Below, one piece after another: positions 2,689 to 29,519 of a stretch of DNA of 40,738 nt. Position 1 is the stretch's first letter, and each line of letters opens with the position of its first letter. Location: the IMG/VR virus record IMGVR_UViG_640753023_000013; one strand, given 5' to 3'. The position numbers and the translations under genes are program-made. This DNA is from a virus. Its lineage: Duplodnaviria > Heunggongvirae > Uroviricota > Caudoviricetes. The notes beneath the pieces are model-generated. The model saw nothing but the letters and a program-made list of their open reading frames with translations. It was not told where the DNA came from and did not search any database.

Positions 2689-3079
2689 CGTCTTTTCTCC
2701 CCGGAATTAACTCGCGTGGATTATCGGAACGGTGATAGAGCCATATACCAATACGCACAGCGACAATTGCTGACACGAATGCGCCTGCAGAGAAAACAAT
2801 CCCTTTTTCAAAAGAGTCCTGCGTGATGGTAGGGATCAGGCTGGCTATGCCGATAAGAATTGATGCTGCTGGTTTGTAAAAGAGAAGGCCGCAAAGAAAG
2901 CTGAGCATCGACAGGAGCACCCGGCGACGGATGGGGTACTCTACTGCAGAGGTAACAAAAATTACCGCCCCAGCCAAAGCCCCTAAAGCAACCTCCGGAG
3001 GGACACCTGCAATAACCGCAGCAAGAGAACCAAAACTAAGCAACTGATTTAATTGCTCACTTGTTACTTGAGCAGACAT
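2675..3079 (-). CDS. Holin-family membrane protein
   Basis: 134 aa, three or four hydrophobic helices, AGGAG RBS, first gene of the lysis cassette. Confidence 0.6.
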   Translation of the reverse strand: MSAQVTSEQLNQLLSFGSLAAVIAGVPPEVALGALAGAVIFVTSAVEYPIRRRVLLSMLSFLCGLLFYKPAASILIGIASLIPTITQDSFEKGIVFSAGAFVSAIVAVRIGIWLYHRSDNPRELIPGRKDDGNA

Positions 3080-3360: not shown

Positions 3361-3388
3361 CCCGCAAAATATTGCGGGCTTTTTTTTA
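3361..3388 (+). terminator. Hairpin plus T-run oriented for + strand transcription, between tailspike and lysis cassette
   Basis: CCCGCAAAATATTGCGGG followed by tttttttt; orientation is opposite to the flanking genes. Confidence 0.4.
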
Positions 3389-6300
3389 ACGTTCTTCCAG
3401 AGACTGAATCCGCTCTTTTATCTTATCCATTTCTCTGCGCTGCCATGCTGCCTCGATATAGAATAAGAGATCAGGTCTGACCCCCCATCTAGATCCTGCT
3501 GGCGTTATTTCAACGCGCTCAATGATGTCTTCCATTACCATCACTGGATTATCATCCTCATCAACAATGATGCTCCCGTCATTATCAGTCAGCGGCATTT
3601 CCCTTTGGCCAGTAATGACGTCATCATATACTGCGGGATAATCGTCATAGCAAAGAAAGGCATAGCGGCATGTTGTGCTTTCTTCTTCCATGAGTCCGTG
3701 AGAAATAAGAACATCACGAAGTTGCTGCGCGATTACACCATGATGTATCCTCGCCCCTTCTTCCCCCTTTATAGCGACAGCGTTCAGCCATTTATAAGCG
3801 ATATACCTGACGTCACCCCAGGCATCCAGCAATGCTTCGTCAGGAGAGACCGGCTCTGTCTTTAATGTTCCGTCACTGGTAACCACAGGATTGGAGCCAA
3901 GATAAACTGTCGAGAACCTGTTTCCCGGACCACCAAGAGCATTTACATTATCAAGATAAGGTTTAACATCTCCGTTCTCAAAAAGATGTTCGAGTGCGTT
4001 ATATACCGCGCGACGTGGAGTACTGCTTCCGGAACCATGCAACGTTATCATTGCACCATCTGCTGAAGACGTTGTTTCACCTCCGCTAACGATTAATCTC
4101 TGAGCGGTAACATCATCAGACGGTACTTTCTTCGCAATAATGGCGTAATTACCCTCAAGTTTGACTTCCGCGCGAACTTGTCCTGATGTACCTGCATGGA
4201 CAGTCAGTGACTGGACGGCAACATCATCTGTGAAATCAACGGGTACAGGAACCGTCCTCACGCCTGACGTCGACATAAAAGTAGGAAGCGTTCTGTTAGG
4301 AGTGGCTCCGTAGACAAAATCCCTTGAAACAAATTCTTCCTGTTTAATTTTCACCCTGAAACAATACAAATCAGCCGGGTGACCATCGTGAACATAAGGA
4401 TATTTTCTGTTGTTATCCCCTATGCTCCATGGGTTTAGAAAGTCTTCCCCACCGAAAATGTAGTACAGCCAGTTGTCTTTGATACAAACTGAACCAACAC
4501 CAACCGCAGAGTTAACTATTCCGCCCTGATAAATCTGATCAGTAACATTAACCCACTCTACATTATCCAGACTCCACTCATTGACGTTAACTCTGGTCAT
4601 AAATGTTCTTGGATAATTTCCTGCATAACGGTTATCAGGTTCTCCTCCTTCCCACTCACCAAATGCGCGCTCACTGCCAAAAATAATCAGCTCATCGCCA
4701 ACTTTGGCAAAAGGAAGGTTTGAGTGATGAACATTATTTGGGAAGCGAAGAGAATTCCATGATGTACCTAAATCAGAGCTTCTGTGCAATGAACTACCGG
4801 GTTGAGTACTTAATGTCCCCCTGGTCGTCAGATACAGAATGCCATCATAATATTTTACACATGGCTCAGATGCATTCGCCTCATATTCTGCAGGTATGCG
4901 TCTGCGAACAAAGCTACCAGGAGAACCGAAAGCATCAGAGAAATAGAGTATCCCAAGCTCGCGTGGACCAATATCACCATTATGGTAGCCAACAGCAAAA
5001 CTGTTATCGCTAATCGTCGCAAAACTGTGAATCTCAGTAACAGGAGTGCTTCCGTCAACAAAAGAAGGAATAGTTCCAAGACTGGTTTTTCTCCATGGTG
5101 ACGAGTGAAATGATGTACCAAAACTCCAGTATCTACCCTCGTTATTCTGATCCACATCCTGGGTATTTTGCGTCGTAACTGTAAAAGTATTTTTATCAAT
5201 AACAGTAGTCACCGTCATATTCCCGGTAACACCTGTAACACCAGAGTTTGAGAAGTTGACAAAATCACCAGCAAATAATCCGTGATCAGTAATGCGAATA
5301 TAAGCGACTTGCTGATTTGCTGCTTTCGTTATACCACCATAAACGCGAAGGCTGCGACTCATTGGGCGATCCCACAACTCTGCAACCTGCAGTTTATTTC
5401 CGCTCACGGTCCGCGTCTCAATTACAGCAAAAAGGCGATTTCTGACAACCCCCATACTCATGCAGTGATAGTTAACTGTGGGATAGTTTTCATGTAAATC
5501 TGTAAGCCATTCCGGCGTTGTCCAGGTCTTCCCGTCATCTCCTGAGCGAACCCATGCAACATGGAGGTTATTTACACCATGGCGGTCTCCAGCCATAAAA
5601 GGCGCATAGATGACATTGTCATATACAAACGTTTTATCCTGCGTCCAGGCGTTGTACCACGGTGTATCTGTAATTTTAAATAACTCTCCCTGGATAAAAT
5701 CTTCAGAAGCATAAAAAAGAGGCTGGCCCGGTATTCTCTCAAATAAAAAACGAGCATTTTTAAATCGACTGACATCCGGAAGAGTTGATACTTTAAAAGT
5801 AAGCCCTAATCCGTCAATTTTATAACCTGGAGATGAGGCTTCAAGGCACGCGCTTATTGCAGTGGAATCGTCATTTATACCATCACCAACAGCTCCAAAA
5901 TCTTTGGGGCTAATAGCATCACGCATTTTATCCTGGAACGTTCGGTACACAGCCCCAGAACCATACTGAATAAACCAACCAAAACCACCAACAACCCCGG
6001 CGATTGCAGCATCGACATAATTACGCATTGAGCGATTATTTACAGCGTCCTGCTCAAATGATGGATCTGCAAGGTTAGAAATTTTGTTTTGCTTTGCATC
6101 GTAATATTTTGCAAGCAAAGATGGTTTCATCAATGCACGTCTGAACCACCCAAAACATTGCTGGATCAGCATCGTCAGGTAGTCAAAGGCATCTTCATGC
6201 ACTTCGGGGAAAAATTTTCCCTGATTGCGAAGGTCTGTCTCCTGCACTACATCAAGCACACGATCTATCGTAATTCGCCATCCAGTAGCAAGCGGAGACG

Positions 6301-6505
6301 GAAGAACCACAGAACCGCCACTATAAGTGCCCGCCCCAGTTACCGTATAACCGGTATCCAGAACCAATTCTGTTACGTTCCCGTTCAGGTCAGACACCTG
6401 AACAACCAGGTCTGATTTTCTGAAAATTCGAAAAGTATACGGAAACGATGTCGTAACGCCGTTACCGGTGTATTCGTTGTGGTCAACTTCGGTTGAGACC
6501 GTCAT
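3386..6505 (-). CDS. Tailspike: N-terminal particle-binding domain, sialidase-like beta-propeller with two Asp-boxes, C-terminal intramolecular chaperone (peptidase S74-like); probable capsule depolymerase
   Basis: Asp-boxes SGDDGKTW and SSDLGTSW; C-terminus resembles the T5 L-shaped-fibre/endosialidase chaperone domain (SDGTLKTEP, FLCYDDY). Confidence 0.8.
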   Translation of the reverse strand: MTVSTEVDHNEYTGNGVTTSFPYTFRIFRKSDLVVQVSDLNGNVTELVLDTGYTVTGAGTYSGGSVVLPSPLATGWRITIDRVLDVVQETDLRNQGKFFPEVHEDAFDYLTMLIQQCFGWFRRALMKPSLLAKYYDAKQNKISNLADPSFEQDAVNNRSMRNYVDAAIAGVVGGFGWFIQYGSGAVYRTFQDKMRDAISPKDFGAVGDGINDDSTAISACLEASSPGYKIDGLGLTFKVSTLPDVSRFKNARFLFERIPGQPLFYASEDFIQGELFKITDTPWYNAWTQDKTFVYDNVIYAPFMAGDRHGVNNLHVAWVRSGDDGKTWTTPEWLTDLHENYPTVNYHCMSMGVVRNRLFAVIETRTVSGNKLQVAELWDRPMSRSLRVYGGITKAANQQVAYIRITDHGLFAGDFVNFSNSGVTGVTGNMTVTTVIDKNTFTVTTQNTQDVDQNNEGRYWSFGTSFHSSPWRKTSLGTIPSFVDGSTPVTEIHSFATISDNSFAVGYHNGDIGPRELGILYFSDAFGSPGSFVRRRIPAEYEANASEPCVKYYDGILYLTTRGTLSTQPGSSLHRSSDLGTSWNSLRFPNNVHHSNLPFAKVGDELIIFGSERAFGEWEGGEPDNRYAGNYPRTFMTRVNVNEWSLDNVEWVNVTDQIYQGGIVNSAVGVGSVCIKDNWLYYIFGGEDFLNPWSIGDNNRKYPYVHDGHPADLYCFRVKIKQEEFVSRDFVYGATPNRTLPTFMSTSGVRTVPVPVDFTDDVAVQSLTVHAGTSGQVRAEVKLEGNYAIIAKKVPSDDVTAQRLIVSGGETTSSADGAMITLHGSGSSTPRRAVYNALEHLFENGDVKPYLDNVNALGGPGNRFSTVYLGSNPVVTSDGTLKTEPVSPDEALLDAWGDVRYIAYKWLNAVAIKGEEGARIHHGVIAQQLRDVLISHGLMEEESTTCRYAFLCYDDYPAVYDDVITGQREMPLTDNDGSIIVDEDDNPVMVMEDIIERVEITPAGSRWGVRPDLLFYIEAAWQRREMDKIKERIQSLEER

Positions 6506-8115: not shown

Positions 8116-8748
8116 ATGAGAACAAATACAACAAGAAAAGCGATGCCATACATTATCCCAGAAGCAGATTTCGATAGAAAACTGAACATGTCTGAGAAGA
8201 ACACTAGTCACACCGAAAGCTACTTAGCGAAAGGTGTGGTTGATTTCGTTCTTCCGGGATTCACAACACCTTATGGTTATCGCCTTGTAAAATCTTGTAA
8301 TGGCGATCATTACAGAATGATTACTACCAGCGATACTCCAGAAACGGTGTATGCGGTTAAGTTAATCTTTCGGGAAGATATCGTCGAAGCCAAAAGAACA
8401 TGTACGCAGATCATGGTATGGCGTACGCCTAATGTTATTCATGACCGTGCTGTTCATGGTTTGCCTCAGATTTTTTTTCAGTTCTTCCTAGAGCAATATG
8501 CGATCGTTGTATCTGATGAGCAACAAACAATCGATGGGAGAAGATTCTGGGAAAGAATGATTTCTTGGGCTATAAACACCCCAGGATATAATGTATACGT
8601 TTCAGATGGCTCTGAAGAAGATAGACCTCTTAGCTTCATGACATCATGGGATGATTTCTATAGCCAGTGGGCTGATTTCTGTTGGGGCAGTGATAAAGAT
8701 GTGCATACCCACAGACTACTGGTTATAAGCAAAGATAAACTGCATTAA
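8116..8748 (+). CDS. Hypothetical protein, AT-rich moron with own terminator; no recognisable domain
   Basis: 210 aa, GGGAGG RBS, AT-rich composition unlike neighbours. Confidence 0.65.
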   Translation: MRTNTTRKAMPYIIPEADFDRKLNMSEKNTSHTESYLAKGVVDFVLPGFTTPYGYRLVKSCNGDHYRMITTSDTPETVYAVKLIFREDIVEAKRTCTQIMVWRTPNVIHDRAVHGLPQIFFQFFLEQYAIVVSDEQQTIDGRRFWERMISWAINTPGYNVYVSDGSEEDRPLSFMTSWDDFYSQWADFCWGSDKDVHTHRLLVISKDKLH

Positions 8749-8752
8749 TAGA

Positions 8753-8774
8753 AGCCCGCAGCGCGGGCTTTTTT
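8753..8774 (+). terminator. Rho-independent terminator
   Basis: AGCCCGC-agc-GCGGGCT followed by tttttt. Confidence 0.7.
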
Positions 8775-8846
8775 GTGGACGAAACAAAAGTCAGTGCTAC
8801 ACTCATTGTCGCCACATTGAGGTGGCTTATAGATGGAAATTTCACA

Positions 8847-9008
8847 ATGAAAAAAGCATTTGCTGCACTGTTCGTTTTGTTGTCTCTGGTAGCTTCAACT
8901 CAGGCCTTTGCCGGTCGTTGTCAGCACGACAGCGACACTGCTGCTGACGGCTCCCGCTGCGGTGGGCGTTCTGCGGATTCCCGCCCGGGTGGCGGTGGCA
9001 TTCGTTAA
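8847..9008 (+). CDS. Small secreted peptide (signal peptide plus about 30-aa mature part with two Cys)
   Basis: MKKAFAALFVLLSLVASTQAFA signal peptide; 53 codons. Confidence 0.4.
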   Translation: MKKAFAALFVLLSLVASTQAFAGRCQHDSDTAADGSRCGGRSADSRPGGGGIR

Positions 9009-9030
9009 AAACAAGGCCGCGAAAGCGGCC
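9003..9030 (-). terminator. Rho-independent terminator for the minus-strand lipoprotein gene
   Basis: Hairpin GGCCGC-gaaa-GCGGCC at 9015-9030 with a U-run on the minus strand. Confidence 0.55.
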
Positions 9031-9039
9031 TGTGACATG

Positions 9040-9420
9040 TCACGCAACGCAATTATTACCGCGCCATGTAACATTTTTAATAATCTTATCAGCACCAAAC
9101 TCAACGTAAACAGAGCAACTGAAATGGAGTGTATAACCGCCATCAGTTGTTGCGTATGTGTTTGAATATATAGTATTACCAATTAGATTAGACGTAGTAT
9201 TATACGTTGTGGTTTGTGGTACGTTATAACTACCAGAGCTTGAGTAAACATACACTCTGTTTCCATCTGGAGATGTAAGCTCTCCCTGAGGATACCCCCA
9301 CTGCTGAACCATTGCGTCTATACTCTGCCCGCGCCACGTAAGCATATTTCTTTCAAACTGTGCAGCTGACTGGCATCCAACGAGAAGCATAAATCCAAAA
9401 ATCAAAAATACTTTTCTCAT
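9040..9420 (-). CDS. Prophage lipoprotein (candidate superinfection-exclusion or conversion protein)
   Basis: Signal peptide with lipobox LLVGC, Thr/Ser/Tyr-rich mature part; ATG at 9420 (track start 9456 rejected). Confidence 0.6.
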   Translation of the reverse strand: MRKVFLIFGFMLLVGCQSAAQFERNMLTWRGQSIDAMVQQWGYPQGELTSPDGNRVYVYSSSGSYNVPQTTTYNTTSNLIGNTIYSNTYATTDGGYTLHFSCSVYVEFGADKIIKNVTWRGNNCVA

Positions 9421-9639
9421 AATTACCCCTATCATGGAAAAACAGCACCAATCCACAAATTAACTAGTTATTTTATTATTCTTCCGAACAATACAATTCC
9501 GAATACTACAAAGCCGAACCATGCCGCTGCACGCAACAGAGATTCCAATTGAAACCCATTTTTATCAAAATGTATGAATAGCATAAAAACGCTGCACATA
9601 TTAGTACAATAAAAGTTATTTGAACCATCATATCTCCTT

Positions 9640-12114
9640 TTATTGCGGAGTGACATCCTGTGGTCGCCACCAGTATGTCTGGTTAAACTCTTTCTTCGAA
9701 CGTTGCTCCATTTTACGCAAATAGCCTGGTGAAAAATACTCCTGCATCTGGTTAAAGATCATGTGATCGAGAGCCGCCTTCAAGTACCAGAGATTCGCAC
9801 CAGGCATCAAACCTTTCCCCAGCTTCACCAGATCACCACCAGTCTGCTCACTCTTCCCTTCCACAGCATTTAACGGTATGCCCTGAGCAATCTTCACTAC
9901 GTCATCAACCAGACCAGCTACCGGGCCAAGCATCGACGCCAGCGCGCCGCTTCCGTACCTAGTGTGATCTGACAATAAAAAGTCACCGTAAAGGCCAAGA
10001 CCACCACCTTTCAGTAGAGCACCAAGCCAGAATTTTGCGGCATCTTCTCCTGTCATCTCTCGAGGATTACGACCAGACGCAAGGTCGTTAAGTTGCTGCG
10101 ACAAAGCGCCAAGAATGGTCGTACTGGCAATAAACGTCGCAATATATGCCGCACGCCCACCAGCAGACGGCATACCCATAGCGCGTGACCAGTGACGCAT
10201 AACAACCGAGATAGGGAACGATTTAAACAGGAAAACACTTCTCGTTAATTCACCTTTCCATGTTCCACGCTGAATACCAGAACCGGTTATCAGTTGCTCA
10301 CGTGCTCCCGGTGTAATAACAGCCATATCAACTTCTTCAGTTACGGCACCGAGCAGTTTACGCATTGCCTCAAATTTCACGCGTTCAGGCTCACCAAGAT
10401 GTTTAACTGCTGAATCAGGGATACGCATAATGCTTTCCGGTGTCAGCATCGTATTATTACCGTTCCCCCAGTCCTCCTGTTTCGCCAGCTTCCATACGCT
10501 CCAGTCTGTGTCAGTAATCCCTTTGCTTTTCAGGATACGAAAATCAGAGTCATCGAGGCTACGAAGGTCTGGTGTCCGTGACACTACTTCTCCCAGGCTT
10601 CCCATCATGGTTACGCCATAGGCGCGCTTGTGCGCATCTGACCATGCTGTAAGCCCACTGGCACGCATTACCGCCGTTGCCGCCCAACGAGACACTGACG
10701 GCCCCATATTATCCATCGCCCAGCGGTTAACGCTGCCAAGTAGAGATTCCATCGCCAGACCAGCGCGGCGCGCCCGCGCAAGTTCTGTACGGTTCGTTGG
10801 GTCCATAGCTTCAAGCTGGTTGCGGAATAACTGGTTCATTGGAAGGTTGGTAACCTTCGCAGACAGATACATGGTTCCAAGATCAGAGAACGATGACAGC
10901 AACGCGGATCCGAGTCTGCTGGCAACCAGCCAGTTGCGGATATTGTCAGACCATCGCGCGATGTGCGGATTCGCTACAGGCTGTGTCTTTCCGGAAATAA
11001 AGTTGTACAGATTCTCTGTGTTGTTCGCCAGCCGCTCGACTTTACCGGTTTTACTCGGGTTAGCTGTTGCCGTTTCTGCCTTCACCTGATCAAGAAGAGA
11101 GCGGAAAACATGATCGGGGTTTGGGCCATATGTTTCCACCAGTGCAATATCTTTACTGATACCTTCCAGGTGACCGACCATGATTTCCCATAGAGAGCGA
11201 TCGCCATAAAGTTGCTGATATTGCAGATAGGAATCTGCATCTTTGAAATGTATCTGTCGTGATGCATTACCACGGTTAGCACGTGCGCCGGAAATTCGCA
11301 TTCCGGTATCAGTAAGCTTATTCAGCCCACCAGTAGCGATCGTGTTATAAGCCTCTCCAAGAAATGAAGACAACTCGGCATCGTTCATCAGTTGTCCATC
11401 GGCTCGGATATAATATTTGCGATCCAGCTTACCTATAACATCGCTAACCCACTTATCCTTTGATACTGCCCCAACCTTTTCCATAGAATGATGTTGAGGG
11501 ATCCCCCAGTTTTCGAGATAGCCAATGTCCCCACCAGCATCATTAAACCGGCGGCGCAGCAGCTCTGTAACTTCTCTCCACGCCTTAGCACCGTTTCTTG
11601 CTTTAGCATTGCCAGTATTTTGCCCCCGCATTTCATATACCAGGTCACGTACGCCCGCTTCATCTTCAAACAGACCAAAAAAGCGAGGATCAACTGCTTC
11701 GAATGCCTCCTGCAATTGACTCAATGCATAATCACGGGTGGCTTTTGTTCTGGATTCAACAGAGAGGAAATTAGATTTACCGTCTGCATTAAAAGCTATA
11801 GTACGGTTAAGAGCGCCAAGTTTCCCATCAGCCCCTTGATAGCTATTGATAAATTTATCCAATCTCTGACGCGCGGCTATAGTGAGAGCCACACGACGTT
11901 TCTTTAATGCCGCTTCTCGCTGTAATTCTTCAGATGCCAATTGTGCTGCTCGATATAGCCGCTCTGATTCGGAAAGTTGTCGCCACGACATAGGGTCATC
12001 ACGAGCAATGGAGCGCATATTTCGATAAATGCGGTCTTCAATGTTCTGTATTTCTCGCGCCGTTAACATGCGCTGCGCCGCCTGCTGAACCGCTTGTATA
12101 CATTCCTGTCTCAT
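9640..12114 (-). CDS. Large internal virion (ejection) protein, 824 aa
   Basis: Size and position in the tail/ejection block; no motif recognised. Confidence 0.55.
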   Translation of the reverse strand: MRQECIQAVQQAAQRMLTAREIQNIEDRIYRNMRSIARDDPMSWRQLSESERLYRAAQLASEELQREAALKKRRVALTIAARQRLDKFINSYQGADGKLGALNRTIAFNADGKSNFLSVESRTKATRDYALSQLQEAFEAVDPRFFGLFEDEAGVRDLVYEMRGQNTGNAKARNGAKAWREVTELLRRRFNDAGGDIGYLENWGIPQHHSMEKVGAVSKDKWVSDVIGKLDRKYYIRADGQLMNDAELSSFLGEAYNTIATGGLNKLTDTGMRISGARANRGNASRQIHFKDADSYLQYQQLYGDRSLWEIMVGHLEGISKDIALVETYGPNPDHVFRSLLDQVKAETATANPSKTGKVERLANNTENLYNFISGKTQPVANPHIARWSDNIRNWLVASRLGSALLSSFSDLGTMYLSAKVTNLPMNQLFRNQLEAMDPTNRTELARARRAGLAMESLLGSVNRWAMDNMGPSVSRWAATAVMRASGLTAWSDAHKRAYGVTMMGSLGEVVSRTPDLRSLDDSDFRILKSKGITDTDWSVWKLAKQEDWGNGNNTMLTPESIMRIPDSAVKHLGEPERVKFEAMRKLLGAVTEEVDMAVITPGAREQLITGSGIQRGTWKGELTRSVFLFKSFPISVVMRHWSRAMGMPSAGGRAAYIATFIASTTILGALSQQLNDLASGRNPREMTGEDAAKFWLGALLKGGGLGLYGDFLLSDHTRYGSGALASMLGPVAGLVDDVVKIAQGIPLNAVEGKSEQTGGDLVKLGKGLMPGANLWYLKAALDHMIFNQMQEYFSPGYLRKMEQRSKKEFNQTYWWRPQDVTPQ

Positions 12115-26327: not shown

Positions 26328-26708
26328 ATGAACGACCAGCAAATCGAAAAAGAAATTGTTGAGAAAGGCAAAACGGCACCGCGAATCACTCCTCAGCACA
26401 TCGAAGACGTGATTAAAAGCGAGCATTACTTTACTGCTTATGATGGACGTAATGGTGCAATTTCCAGCAACGAATATTGTGGCAGAGAAAAACCAGAAGA
26501 AGGTGATCGTGATTTATCACCATTGAAGTTGCTCACTTTCTGCGTACTGGTGCTGAAGAATGGCTTCACCGTCACCGGAGAGAGCGCCTGTGCAAGCCCG
26601 GAAAATTTTGATGCAGAAATTGGTCGGAAGATTGCCCGGCAGAATGCTGTAAACAAAATCTGGATGCTTGAAGGTTACTTGCTGAAGCAGAAGTTAAGCG
26701 AGCAATAA
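26328..26708 (+). CDS. Phage protein of the gp49/gene-66 type (unknown function)
   Basis: 126 aa on the opposite strand to its neighbours; family assignment from recalled similarity only. Confidence 0.55.
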   Translation: MNDQQIEKEIVEKGKTAPRITPQHIEDVIKSEHYFTAYDGRNGAISSNEYCGREKPEEGDRDLSPLKLLTFCVLVLKNGFTVTGESACASPENFDAEIGRKIARQNAVNKIWMLEGYLLKQKLSEQ

Positions 26709-26712
26709 CACC

Positions 26713-26724
26713 GTGACATGTCAC
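26713..26724. repeat. Palindrome GTGACATGTCAC (copy 2 of 3)
   Basis: Perfect 12-bp palindrome 5 nt after the stop of the 26328 gene. Confidence 0.7.
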
Positions 26725-29163: not shown

Positions 29164-29175
29164 GTGACATGTCAC
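29164..29175. repeat. Palindrome GTGACATGTCAC (copy 3 of 3)
   Basis: Perfect 12-bp palindrome at the junction of the 29172-29519 and 28942-29154 genes. Confidence 0.7.
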
Positions 29176-29519
29176 ACTATTAATTTCGTTTCATGCCAGC
29201 CTTTAGTCACCCAGCATTGTGAGTCACCATTACACGGGCATGAATTAACGGGAACTCTCTCGCCGCACTTACCGCAAAGTTTTCTGCTGATCGATTTTAT
29301 ACGCCCGCGCACACGTGCATCATCCTGGCGGATCAGCAGCGCGATGTACTCGGCCATTTCATAGGGATCGCGACCAGGGCGCCGGGCGGCGCAGTTCCGC
29401 GCCAGCATTTCCTGCTCCTGCTTATCCAGCACCAGTTCAATTTTGCGCTCACCGGCGGCGGACTGCCGAGCGCGCTGCGCGGCTTTGCGTTCTGCGGGGG
29501 ATTTAGCCACGAATCGCAC
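29172..29519 (-). CDS. Cys-rich hypothetical protein (CxxC...CPC), candidate late-gene regulator
   Basis: 115 aa, basic N-terminal half, C-terminal CGKCGERVPVNSCPCNGDSQC; GTG start, weak RBS. Confidence 0.45.
   Translation of the reverse strand: MRFVAKSPAERKAAQRARQSAAGERKIELVLDKQEQEMLARNCAARRPGRDPYEMAEYIALLIRQDDARVRGRIKSISRKLCGKCGERVPVNSCPCNGDSQCWVTKGWHETKLIV

What the first reader, a model, noticed from the sequence alone, without database searches (positions are those of the whole stretch)
8847..9420. Convergent secreted peptide and lipoprotein sharing one terminator hairpin
A 53-codon gene (signal peptide plus about 30-aa mature peptide with two Cys) converges on a lipoprotein gene. The lipoprotein terminator hairpin overlaps the peptide gene end and the first GTGACATGTCAC copy. 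Envelope-located prophage proteins in this position are often exclusion factors that block receptors or DNA injection.
Basis: inference. Interest (0 to 1): 0.5.

Follow-up and report, generated by a model that had tools for sequence, protein, structure and literature searches.

The report
Secreted-peptide moron abutting a phage lipoprotein gene
In an epsilon15-like prophage of E. coli K1, a self-contained cassette for a tiny exported peptide and a gene for an outer-membrane lipoprotein meet tail to tail at one terminator hairpin; both genes are real and conserved, but their function is unknown, so a role in blocking other phages remains a reasonable guess.

Summary
The anatomy is confirmed. 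There is a 53-codon gene (8847-9008, +) with a Sec signal peptide and two Cys. It converges on a 126-codon lipoprotein gene (9040-9420, -). One GC hairpin (9014-9031) and the palindrome GTGACATGTCAC (9032-9043) lie in the 31 nt between the two stop codons.

The window is an epsilon15/phiV10-like prophage of E. coli O7:K1 CE10. The two genes are independent modules. The peptide cassette (about 8750-9043) has the layout of a classical moron and occurs in 531 of 5426 complete E. coli genomes. The lipoprotein block occurs in 33.

The peptide is under strong purifying selection. It belongs to an unnamed family (454 cluster representatives) that also occurs outside phages, in Rhizobiales and cyanobacteria.

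In relatives from E. coli, Salmonella, Klebsiella and Raoultella, the lipoprotein gene is always the last gene of the virion/ejection-protein operon. Its predicted fold is only remotely BamE/BLIP-like. phiV10 lacks it.

The hairpin is the late-operon terminator. Its T-tract is on the minus strand only.

An exclusion role is plausible for the lipoprotein by position and envelope targeting, but it is untested. It is less likely for the peptide. Overall this is an ordinary kind of feature with two uncharacterised members.

The parts
8750..8775 (+). Intrinsic terminator after the 210-aa gene (GAAGCCCGC-AGC-GCGGGCTTTTTT). It marks the left edge of the conserved peptide cassette.
   Evidence: A 41-nt stretch containing it folds at -15.3 kcal/mol, z = -3.0. 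Phage and E. coli homology to the cassette starts at about 8745-8753. The homologous element sits upstream of the Klebsiella copy.
8795..8803 (+). Candidate promoter -10 element (TG-C-TACACT). No good -35 element.
   Evidence: A TAnnnT hexamer is kept at the same distance from the 5' stem-loop in most of the 14 enterobacterial copies. The consensus promoter scan did not call it. This is an inference.
8811..8826 (+). 5'-UTR stem-loop GCCAC-AUUGAG-GUGGC.
   Evidence: 76.5% of cells pair. 3 of 5 pairs show changes on both sides (A-U to G-C in 5 sequences). Slid controls pair at 22-30% in five of six registers, but 67.6% at -3. Thermodynamically it is weak on its own.
8847..9008 (+). Peptide gene, 53 codons. 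Signal peptide 8847-8912, mature 31-aa peptide 8913-9005, with Cys25 and Cys38.
   Evidence: Matches phrog_14503 at E = 2e-40. Alignment of 27 homologues. Over the 25 core codons pS is 0.55-1.0 against pN of 0-0.18.
9014..9031 (-). GC-rich hairpin with GAAA loop. It is the late-operon terminator. The T-tract at 9013-9007 overlaps the peptide stop codon.
   Evidence: Terminator scan and fold. The same element is annotated as a terminator in phiV10. Homologous hairpins with GAAA, TTCG or TTAG loops follow the peptide gene in other genera.
9032..9043 (.). Palindrome GTGACATGTCAC. It contains the lipoprotein TGA stop (9042-9040) and marks the right edge of the peptide cassette.
9040..9420 (-). Lipoprotein gene, 126 codons. 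Lipobox LVG|C16, Gln17, invariant Cys102 and Cys124.
9506..9631 (-). Candidate 41-aa single-TM ORF (MMVQITFIVLICAAFLCYSYILIK...). An AAGGAG Shine-Dalgarno lies directly after the stop of the 824-aa gene.
   Evidence: Read. It travels with the lipoprotein in 33 E. coli genomes. phiV10 p21 is an unrelated small membrane protein at the same place. Coding status not proven.
9640..12114 (-). 824-aa virion structural protein (phiV10 p20 homologue). This is the last conserved gene of the late operon, given as context.
   Evidence: Matches phrog_684 at E = 0. phiV10 annotation.

Best explanation
Two independently mobile accessory modules meet tail to tail at the late-operon terminator of an epsilon15/phiV10-like prophage.

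Module 1 (about 8750-9043) is a classical moron.
- It consists of an upstream terminator, a weak sigma-70-type promoter, a 5' stem-loop, a 53-codon gene and a 3' hairpin.
- Its product is exported by Sec and cleaved after Ala22. It is probably oxidised to a Cys25-Cys38 loop, giving a 31-residue Gly/Ser/Arg/Asp-rich periplasmic peptide.
- The peptide belongs to an old, unnamed extracytoplasmic mini-domain family that enterobacterial podophages have captured.
- It most likely acts by binding a general envelope component. It is probably made from the repressed prophage.

Module 2 (9040-9631) is the variable tail end of the late operon.
- It holds a candidate 41-aa membrane peptide and an outer-membrane lipoprotein with a remotely BamE/BLIP-like fold.
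- Both would be co-transcribed with the ejection-protein genes.
- The lipoprotein's most likely job is to interfere with a post-adsorption step of related phages, namely outer-membrane penetration or the ejection conduit. Alternatively it masks that target on cell debris. This would be in the manner of T5 Llp or Cor, at the genomic position of P22 sieA.

The hairpin terminates the late operon. For the peptide mRNA it is only a 3' hairpin without a U-tract.

Shown: the anatomy, the coding status, the modularity, the synteny and the envelope targeting signals. Inferred: the promoter, the disulfide, the timing of expression and both functions.
For: Source and context:
- E. coli CE10 prophage with an endosialidase tailspike.
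- phiV10-like gene order.

Peptide:
- The signal region is variable and the mature region nearly invariant.
- Synonymous sites are near saturation with almost no replacements (Buttiauxella: 15 synonymous, 0 non-synonymous).
- 454 cluster representatives.
- Stand-alone genes in Rhizobiales and cyanobacteria have no conserved neighbours.
- The domain is fused to SH3_3 or to TM-anchored proteins, always on the extracytoplasmic side.

Moron features:
- Homology block 8750-9044 in 531 genomes, next to different virion modules.
- phiV10 keeps only a 3' scar of the gene.
- GC is 57% against 40-41% for the neighbours.
- Canonical own terminators in Enterobacter, Franconibacter and Tolumonas copies.
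- Conserved -10 hexamer and a covarying 5' stem.

Lipoprotein:
- Invariant lipobox Cys and two further invariant Cys.
- Always the last gene after the large virion protein in E. coli, Salmonella, Klebsiella and Raoultella. In two loci it is start/stop-coupled to a 2-TM protein.
- Absent from the viable phage phiV10.
- No terminator or convincing promoter between it and the 824-aa gene.
- BamE/OsmE/BLIP/T6SS-immunity-like fold.

Positional analogy: P22 SieA blocks injection through the ejection proteins (PMC10883804). Cor inactivates FhuA (PMC11436027).
Against: - No experiment or expression data exist for either gene.
- No sequence match to Cor, Llp, SieA or any PADLOC model.
- Foldseek against the PDB gives no significant hit (best E = 0.13), so the fold assignment is weak.
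- The peptide promoter is not a consensus match.
- The AF2 model of the mature peptide is of low confidence, so the disulfide and any binding surface are inferred.
- A late-operon lipoprotein would not protect a lysogen unless it also has a promoter that I did not detect.
- The wide non-phage distribution of the peptide says nothing positive about what it binds.
Confidence: 0.5

Rival explanations
1. One reading: both products are prophage-expressed superinfection-exclusion factors. They may work together to block a receptor or DNA injection.
For: - Both are envelope-targeted.
- Both are accessory genes.
- They sit at the P22 sieA-like position between the ejection-protein genes and the tailspike gene.
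- In most E. coli genomes that carry the lipoprotein, the peptide gene lies next to it (28 genomes cover at least 80% of the two-gene stretch, against 33 with the lipoprotein block).
Against: - The peptide occurs without the lipoprotein in about 500 E. coli genomes. The lipoprotein occurs without the peptide in Salmonella and Klebsiella.
- The peptide family is mostly non-phage.
- The lipoprotein is embedded in the late operon with no promoter detected.
- No PADLOC or PHROG exclusion annotation.
Confidence: 0.2
2. The lipoprotein serves the phage's own lytic cycle rather than exclusion. Examples would be a BamE-like modulator of outer-membrane integrity or assembly that helps release, or a periplasmic inhibitor that protects the producing cell from its own ejection or lytic proteins. 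In this reading the peptide is a host-physiology (lysogenic conversion) factor unrelated to phage entry.
For: - Co-transcription with late genes is the default reading.
- ATGA coupling to a 2-TM inner-membrane protein in Raoultella and another locus.
- The BamE/OsmE/BLIP-type fold is a protein-binding scaffold.
- The peptide family is chromosomal and free-standing in many free-living bacteria.
Against: - A complete lysis cassette with Rz/Rz1-type spanins lies elsewhere in the phiV10 genome. Matching holin genes lie next to the tailspike in CE10 and the relatives.
- phiV10 and most relatives do without the lipoprotein, so any lytic role is non-essential.
- There is no direct evidence for any of these activities.
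Confidence: 0.25
3. The small ORF is a Hok-like type I membrane toxin, or is not translated at all. In that case the convergent arrangement would serve antisense control.
For: - Hydrophobic N-terminus.
- Convergent transcription.
- A short upstream ORF whose TGA overlaps the start codon (8833-8850).
Against: - Conservation is concentrated in the hydrophilic C-terminal 27 residues. The hydrophobic segment varies freely but keeps an AxA cleavage motif.
- pN/pS is far below 1 over the core.
- Homologues occur as extracytoplasmic domains of larger proteins.
- The upstream ORF is not conserved.
Confidence: 0.03

Closest known systems
Morons of lambdoid and P22-like phages (promoter-gene-terminator cassettes; definition from the literature, my own knowledge)
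   Same: - An extra gene present or absent at one junction among close relatives.
- Flanked by a terminator upstream and a hairpin downstream.
- Different base composition from its neighbours.
- The product is exported to the envelope.
   Different: The promoter is only inferred. In this window the downstream hairpin has lost its plus-strand U-tract and is shared with the converging late operon.
T5 Llp and Cor (phi80, N15, T1, HK022): small outer-membrane lipoproteins that inactivate the receptor FhuA
   Same: A small phage-encoded outer-membrane lipoprotein. It is non-essential and encoded beside the genes of the adsorption/entry apparatus (Cor in PMC11436027; Llp from my own knowledge).
   Different: - No sequence or detectable fold relationship.
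- The phages here are podoviruses that bind capsule or O-antigen, and no protein receptor is known for them.
- The lipoprotein occurs with four different tailspike types.
P22 SieA (inner-membrane protein that blocks the gp16/gp20 ejection conduit)
   Same: The genomic position is the same: between the ejection-protein genes and the tailspike gene of a short-tailed temperate phage, next to ant-type genes. The position of sieA is from my own knowledge of the P22 map.
   Different: SieA is a polytopic inner-membrane protein expressed from its own promoter in the lysogen. Here the products are a lipoprotein and a secreted peptide, and there is no homology.
BamE / OsmE / BLIP-like (SmpA_OmlA) lipoprotein domains
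   Different: No Pfam PF04355 match. The beta hairpins are long, there are two extra invariant Cys, and Foldseek E-values are not significant.
Excalibur calcium-binding motif DxDxDGxxCE (recalled from memory)
   Same: The peptide core D-[RT]-A-[SA]-D-G-S-R-C-G lines up without gaps on D-x-D-x-D-G-x-x-C-E.
   Different: The central Asp and the final Glu are missing. No Pfam hit even at E = 10. This is a lead only.

Membership tests
Moron (promoter-gene-terminator cassette) | Extra gene present in some and absent in other closely related phages at the same junction | tested here: met
   phiV10 and E. coli hits H41-H44 keep only the last 20-40 nt plus hairpin plus palindrome. The cassette is in 531 of 5426 E. 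coli genomes, next to different late-operon ends.
Moron (promoter-gene-terminator cassette) | Own promoter upstream of the gene | tested here: inconclusive
   A conserved TAnnnT hexamer lies 7-9 nt before a covarying 5' stem-loop. There is no acceptable -35, and the consensus scan did not call it.
Moron (promoter-gene-terminator cassette) | Own terminator downstream | tested here: inconclusive
   Canonical hairpin plus T-run in Enterobacter, Franconibacter and Tolumonas copies. In this window the homologous hairpin has no plus-strand T-run.
Moron (promoter-gene-terminator cassette) | Base composition differs from flanking phage genes | tested here: met
   Peptide gene 57% GC (mature part 69%). 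The 210-aa gene is 41%, the lipoprotein 40% and the gap 34%.
Sec/SPase I secreted protein | Basic n-region, hydrophobic h-region of 10-15 residues, small residues at -3 and -1 | tested here: met
   MKK, then AFAALFVLLSLVA, then STQ-A-F-A|G. The -3/-1 pattern [ASV]-x-A is kept in the family while the h-region varies. SignalP was not available.
Bacterial lipoprotein (Lgt/LspA pathway) | Lipobox [LVI][ASTVI][GAS]C at the end of a signal peptide | tested here: met
   L-V-G-C16. The Cys is invariant in 29 homologues. There is a weak LPAM_1 hit.
Bacterial lipoprotein (Lgt/LspA pathway) | Residue +2 is not Asp, giving Lol-dependent outer-membrane sorting | tested here: met
   Gln17 (Ala in divergent members). 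Actual localisation is not testable here.
Cor / Llp receptor-masking lipoproteins | Sequence or fold membership | tested here: not met
   Only phrog_3716 (unknown function). No Pfam or PADLOC family, and no PDB Foldseek hit with E below 0.1.
Cor / Llp receptor-masking lipoproteins | Blocks a defined outer-membrane receptor | not testable with these tools
   Needs plating, adsorption and binding assays.
BamE / SmpA_OmlA (PF04355) | Pfam model above the gathering score | tested here: not met
P22 SieA-type exclusion protein | Polytopic inner-membrane protein that targets the ejection proteins | tested here: not met
   The products are a cleaved secreted peptide and a lipoprotein. Only the genomic position is shared.
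Bidirectional intrinsic terminator | GC-rich stem-loop followed by a U-tract on both strands | tested here: not met
   The minus strand has TGTTTTT after the stem and the plus strand has TGTGACAT. Klebsiella, Kluyvera and Buttiauxella copies have TTTGTG on the plus strand.
Type I toxin (Hok-like) | Conserved uncleaved transmembrane peptide | tested here: not met
   The hydrophobic segment is the least conserved part. The cleavage motif and hydrophilic core are conserved.
Excalibur domain (PF05901) | DxDxDGxxCE motif and Pfam model match | tested here: not met
   The motif is DxxxDGxxCG. No Pfam hit at E up to 10 for E. coli or distant members.

The most novel reading that the evidence does not exclude
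The 31-residue peptide represents an unnamed, ancient extracytoplasmic mini-domain. Its core is C-x4-D-[RT]-A-[SA]-DGSRCG-x-R-[SA][AS]-x2-RPGG, with 454 cluster representatives across Proteobacteria and cyanobacteria. It is also fused to cell-wall-binding SH3 domains. In this reading the domain binds a universal envelope component such as peptidoglycan or a divalent cation. Enterobacterial podophages have captured it as a prophage-expressed moron to alter the periplasm in a way that hinders incoming phages or benefits the lysogen. In the same reading, the GTGACATGTCAC palindrome that bounds the cassette is a functional punctuation or recombination site at operon ends.
Probability: 0.2. Interest if true: 0.6.

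Novelty: new member of a known kind. Interest (0 to 1): 0.35.

Why it matters
About one in ten complete E. coli genomes carries this exact 53-aa gene, and nothing is known about it. Its core motif defines a protein family with no Pfam, NCBIfam or PDB entry, and the family reaches far beyond phages. If the peptide or the lipoprotein changes phage susceptibility, that would bear on phage therapy and phage typing of K1, O157 and Klebsiella strains. It would also add an outer-membrane or periplasmic counterpart to P22 SieA for short-tailed phages. SieA is said to be the only such system studied so far (PMC10883804). If neither does, the locus is still a clean, well-bounded example of moron exchange at a conserved terminator-palindrome joint.

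Tried and rejected
- Family searches. Pfam, NCBIfam, PADLOC and PDB sequence searches for both proteins and for distant peptide homologues gave no named family.
- Rfam. A search on 8600-9700 gave only sub-threshold chance hits.
- Peptide structure. The AF2 model has low confidence in the mature part (pLDDT 43-64), so I made no fold search with it.
- Lipoprotein fold. Foldseek against the PDB gave no significant hit. BFVD gave one uncharacterised phage protein and weak SmpA/OmlA lipoproteins. The afdb50 library was unavailable.
- Literature. Searches for the annotation name, the motif DGSRCG, the accession, and phiV10/epsilon15 with 'lipoprotein' found nothing relevant. The ZX5 paper does not discuss these ORFs.
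- Conserved neighbours of non-enteric peptide genes: none found. This argues against a dedicated modification, transport or immunity partner.
- P0142, an 805-aa chitin-binding protein, was rejected as a false positive of the peptide profile.
- The 77-codon GTG start (8775) and the 138-codon GTG start (9456) were rejected. Homologues conserve only the MKK and MRK/MKK starts.
- CRP and LexA sites were considered for the palindrome and rejected on half-site spacing and sequence, by inspection.
- The 62-aa ORF 9468-9656 was rejected in favour of the 41-aa frame, which has an AAGGAG Shine-Dalgarno.
Full report
**Observation.** The region reads as the first-stage reader described.
- A 53-codon ORF runs from ATG 8847 to TAA 9006-9008 on the plus strand. 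It encodes MKKAFAALFVLLSLVASTQAFAGRCQHDSDTAADGSRCGGRSADSRPGGGGIR.
- A 126-codon ORF runs on the minus strand from ATG 9420 to TGA 9042-9040. It begins MRKVFLIFGFMLLVGCQS, a textbook lipobox.
- Only 31 nt separate the two stop codons. They hold a 7-bp, GC-rich hairpin with a GAAA loop (9014-9031) and most of the palindrome GTGACATGTCAC (9032-9043).
- The terminator scan calls the hairpin on the minus strand only, with tail TGTTTTTAAC. On the plus strand it is followed by TGTGACAT.
- So the T-tract, not the stem, overlaps the peptide stop codon. The palindrome, not the hairpin, contains the lipoprotein stop codon.
- A 51-nt stretch (9000-9050) containing the hairpin folds at -17.9 kcal/mol, z = -2.6 against shuffles.
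- The palindrome occurs three times in the window against 0.11 expected.

**Source and context.** The stretch 8760-9470 is 99.9% identical to the chromosome of E. coli O7:K1 CE10. RefSeq annotates exactly these two ORFs there as hypothetical proteins.
- The element is an epsilon15/phiV10-like (Uetakevirus) prophage with an endosialidase tailspike.
- On the minus strand the late operon ends with three large virion proteins (837, 600 and 824 aa), then a short gap, then the lipoprotein gene and the hairpin.
- On the plus strand an accessory cluster runs from beside the tailspike gene: an 86-aa protein, a Bro-N antirepressor-like protein and a 210-aa protein closed by a strong terminator at 8750-8775. 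The peptide gene follows.
- In phiV10 the same hairpin is annotated as the terminator of the late operon.

**The peptide gene is real.** Several lines of evidence agree.
- Fifty-seven protein clusters from Escherichia, Shigella, Klebsiella, Citrobacter, Cronobacter, Salmonella, Pectobacterium, Dickeya and others match it. Sources name them 'transmembrane anchored protein'.
- In an alignment of 27, the hydrophobic N-terminal third varies freely but keeps an [ASV]-x-A|G cleavage motif. Residues 23-49 are nearly invariant: C25, D30, A32, G35-S36-R37-C38, G40-R41-S42, and D44 to G49. Cleavage after Ala22 gives a 31-residue mature peptide.
- At the DNA level, over the 25 core codons, synonymous sites are close to saturation (pS 0.55-1.0). 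Replacement changes are few (pN 0-0.18). The Buttiauxella copy has 15 synonymous and no non-synonymous differences. This rules out a non-coding or spurious ORF.
- The longer 77-codon GTG frame is not conserved.

**The peptide family is broad and unnamed.**
- A scan of one genome per species found 57 loci. Besides enterics they include Mesorhizobium, Rhizobium, Agrobacterium, Bradyrhizobium, Devosia, Methylobacterium, several cyanobacteria, Vibrio and Bacteriovorax. Most are roughly 45-60-residue stand-alone genes of the form signal peptide plus C-x4-D-[RT]-A-[SA]-DGSRCG-x-R-[SA][AS]-x2-RPGG-x.
- A profile search of 1.84 billion representatives gave 454 hits at E up to 0.001.
- The motif also occurs in larger proteins. 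It forms the N-terminal extracytoplasmic part of TM-anchored proteins and is tandemly repeated in a lipoprotein. A four-Cys variant (NCPCPYN..NGSRCGGRSAYSRPGG..PLCY) lies behind SH3_3 domains.
- No Pfam, NCBIfam or PDB entry matches, and the motif does not appear in the searchable literature.
- The non-enteric genes share no neighbours. So there is no dedicated partner enzyme, transporter or immunity gene.
- The AF2 model of the mature part is unreliable.

**The peptide cassette behaves as a moron.**
- Megablast against 5426 complete E. coli genomes finds the block 8760-9044 in 531 genomes. Most copies are at least 95% identical. They lie next to quite different late-operon ends: a 186-aa protein, a 283-aa protein, or an ant/arc module as in TL-2011b. 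Upstream neighbours also differ (YafO toxin, DUF2335, or the 210-aa protein). The encoded protein is often identical.
- Homology ends at the palindrome (window 9033-9048, mostly 9044).
- phiV10 and some E. coli prophages keep only the last 20-40 nt of the gene (GGGGIR-stop) plus hairpin plus palindrome. This is a deletion scar.
- Base composition sets the cassette apart: 57% GC against 40-41% on both sides.
- In Enterobacter, Franconibacter and Tolumonas the homologous hairpin is followed by a run of T and is a normal terminator for the peptide gene. In Klebsiella, Kluyvera and Buttiauxella it is followed by TTTGTGACATGTCAC. In this window only one T is left.
- Upstream, a TAnnnT hexamer (here TG-C-TACACT, 8795-8803) is kept 7-9 nt before a short stem-loop (8811-8826). 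That stem shows A-U to G-C exchanges in five sequences. It pairs in 76.5% of cells against 22-30% in five of six slid registers, though the -3 register reaches 67.6%.
- The promoter is an inference. The consensus scan does not call it.

**The lipoprotein.**
- Thirty-seven clusters, all from Enterobacterales, match it. Only 3 of 50,697 phage records and 33 of 5426 E. coli genomes carry it.
- Cys16 of the lipobox, Cys102 and Cys124 are invariant. Residue +2 is Gln or Ala, which by the +2 rule (established knowledge) predicts outer-membrane sorting.
- In every context examined (E. coli, Salmonella, Klebsiella, Raoultella and one further genome) it is the last gene after the large virion protein of an epsilon15-like late operon. 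It occurs with four different tailspike types.
- In Salmonella it starts 10 nt after the 824-aa gene. In two other loci its start overlaps the stop of a 99-109-aa two-TM protein.
- In this window a candidate 41-aa TM ORF with an AAGGAG Shine-Dalgarno occupies the gap. phiV10 has an unrelated 46-aa membrane protein there and no lipoprotein.
- So the slot after the last ejection/virion gene holds interchangeable small envelope proteins, and none is essential for a viable phage.
- No terminator and no credible promoter lie between the 824-aa gene and the lipoprotein gene. Co-transcription with late genes is therefore the default reading.
- The AF2 model (pLDDT 84) has two helices packed on a sheet of long hairpins.
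- Foldseek gives BamE at high probability but a non-significant E-value. It gives no hit with E below 0.1 to any solved structure, so no solved exclusion lipoprotein was detected either.
- Pfam, PHROG function labels and PADLOC give nothing.

**Hairpin and palindrome.**
- The hairpin is evolutionarily tied to both sides. It is homologous to the peptide gene's own terminator in other genera. In phiV10 it stands at the end of the late operon without an intact peptide gene.
- The palindrome is kept at the lipoprotein stop codon in Salmonella and Klebsiella, although those proteins are only 68-79% identical to this one. It is kept even where the hairpin has been replaced.
- The two other copies in the window also follow stop codons. 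One (26713) precedes a terminator hairpin behind a Phage_gp49_66 moron. The other (29164) contains the TGA of ORF 29172-29519.
- phiV10 has copies at the corresponding places. I could not assign a function to it.
- Plus-strand transcripts that pass the hairpin would run antisense through a C-rich, G-poor stretch (GC skew down to -0.54). That would suit Rho-dependent termination. This is inference only.

**Mechanism.**
- The best-supported account is two independent accessory modules that abut at the late-operon terminator.
- For the peptide: Sec export, cleavage at AFA|G, probable DsbA-type closure of the 14-residue Cys25-Cys38 loop, and action in the periplasm on a general envelope component.
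- The distribution outside phages and the fusions to SH3_3 or TM anchors fit a generic binding module. They do not fit a blocker of one phage receptor.
- For the lipoprotein: export to the inner leaflet of the outer membrane during late gene expression, and interference with a step common to epsilon15-like phages after polysaccharide binding. This follows from its strict linkage to the ejection-protein genes and its independence of tailspike type.
- Known analogies support the idea. P22 SieA blocks the gp16/gp20 conduit, and sieA lies in the same interval between ejection-protein and tailspike genes (PMC10883804; gene position from my own knowledge of the P22 map). Cor inactivates FhuA (PMC11436027). 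T5 Llp masks FhuA (my own knowledge).
- These functional steps are inferred, not shown.

**Rivals.**
- Both genes are a prophage-expressed exclusion pair. This is weakened by their independent distribution and by the late-operon position of the lipoprotein.
- The lipoprotein helps the phage's own lytic cycle. This is possible, but phiV10 carries a full spanin set elsewhere in its genome and most relatives lack the gene.
- The small ORF is a Hok-like toxin or is untranslated. This is refuted by the conservation pattern and by pN/pS.

**Comparison, novelty and verdict.**
- The locus is a new member of known kinds: a moron for a small exported protein, and a terminal accessory lipoprotein of a podophage late operon.
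- It fails the tested membership criteria for Cor/Llp, SieA, BamE (Pfam), Excalibur and type I toxins. It meets those for SPase I and lipoprotein signal peptides, and two of the four moron criteria, with promoter and terminator left inconclusive.
- What is mildly new is that the peptide defines a large unnamed domain family, and that a conserved stop-palindrome-hairpin joint marks the module boundary.
- A specialist would not be surprised by the arrangement. Interest is moderate to low (0.35).
The exclusion interpretation is only partly supported.

Noticed in passing
window 9032-9043, 26713-26724, 29164-29175; L068 (phiV10) 19493, 2262 and the 39101/1 junction; L005 6378; L072 5382: The palindrome GTGACATGTCAC has three exact copies against 0.11 expected. 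Each sits at or just after a stop codon, and two are followed by a terminator hairpin. It is conserved at syntenic sites in phiV10. It is also conserved at the lipoprotein stop codon in Salmonella and Klebsiella despite 68-79% protein identity. E. coli-wide homology of the peptide cassette ends at it. Function unknown.
   Followed up: partly
window 8833-8850; L010, L015, L007, L008 upstream of the peptide ATG: A five-codon upstream ORF (ATG GAA ATT TCA CAA TGA) has a stop that overlaps the peptide start codon (ATGA). The same arrangement is in Kluyvera and one Enterobacter copy. It is an in-frame extension in two others and absent in the rest. It lies within a conserved CUACACAUGG stretch of the 5' UTR.
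   Followed up: partly
P0183, P0236, P0192, P0117, P0127, P0134, P0160, P0110 (one search hits): The peptide core motif recurs as a domain of larger extracytoplasmic proteins. One form is a four-Cys variant (NCPCPYN..NGSRCGGRSAYSRPGG..PLCY) behind SH3_3 domains. Another is an N-terminal domain followed by a TM helix and a cytoplasmic region of about 150 aa. It is also tandemly repeated in a lipoprotein. No Pfam or NCBIfam model covers it.
   Followed up: partly
L003 (phiV10) 3000-3060; L067 3501-3579: phiV10 and some E. coli prophages retain only the last 20-40 nt of the peptide gene (encoding GGGGIR-stop) fused to the hairpin and palindrome. This is a deletion scar showing the gene was lost, not never present.
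   Followed up: yes
window 9506-9631 (-): A candidate 41-aa single-TM ORF with an AAGGAG Shine-Dalgarno lies directly after the 824-aa virion gene. phiV10 p21 (46 aa, 2 TM) and the 99-109-aa two-TM proteins of L069 and L070 occupy the same slot with unrelated sequences.
   Followed up: partly
window 8116-8748 (+) and the same slot in L002, L064, L066, L067: The gene just upstream of the peptide cassette alternates between a 210-aa protein of unknown function (phrog_1349), a YafO-family toxin and a DUF2335 protein. Each is followed by the same terminator-peptide cassette.
   Followed up: no
window 3386-6505 (-): The tailspike of this epsilon15-like prophage is annotated as an endosialidase (K1 capsule depolymerase) in a K1 meningitis strain. 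Relatives carry GDSL-lipase, P22-tail or Phage_tail_beta spikes at the same place.
   Followed up: no
window 26328-26708 (+): A Phage_gp49_66 family gene is inserted on the opposite strand, next to the large terminase gene. It ends with the same stop-palindrome-hairpin-T-tract arrangement as the late operon.
   Followed up: partly
L072 4858-5000: In Klebsiella the 143-nt gap before the lipoprotein gene carries a small hydrophobic ORF on the opposite strand (MITFFLRLTVLAVFILALNIVIYGIPRIFGMPWI). The lipoprotein there starts with TTG after a strong Shine-Dalgarno, so its expression may be organised differently.
   Followed up: no
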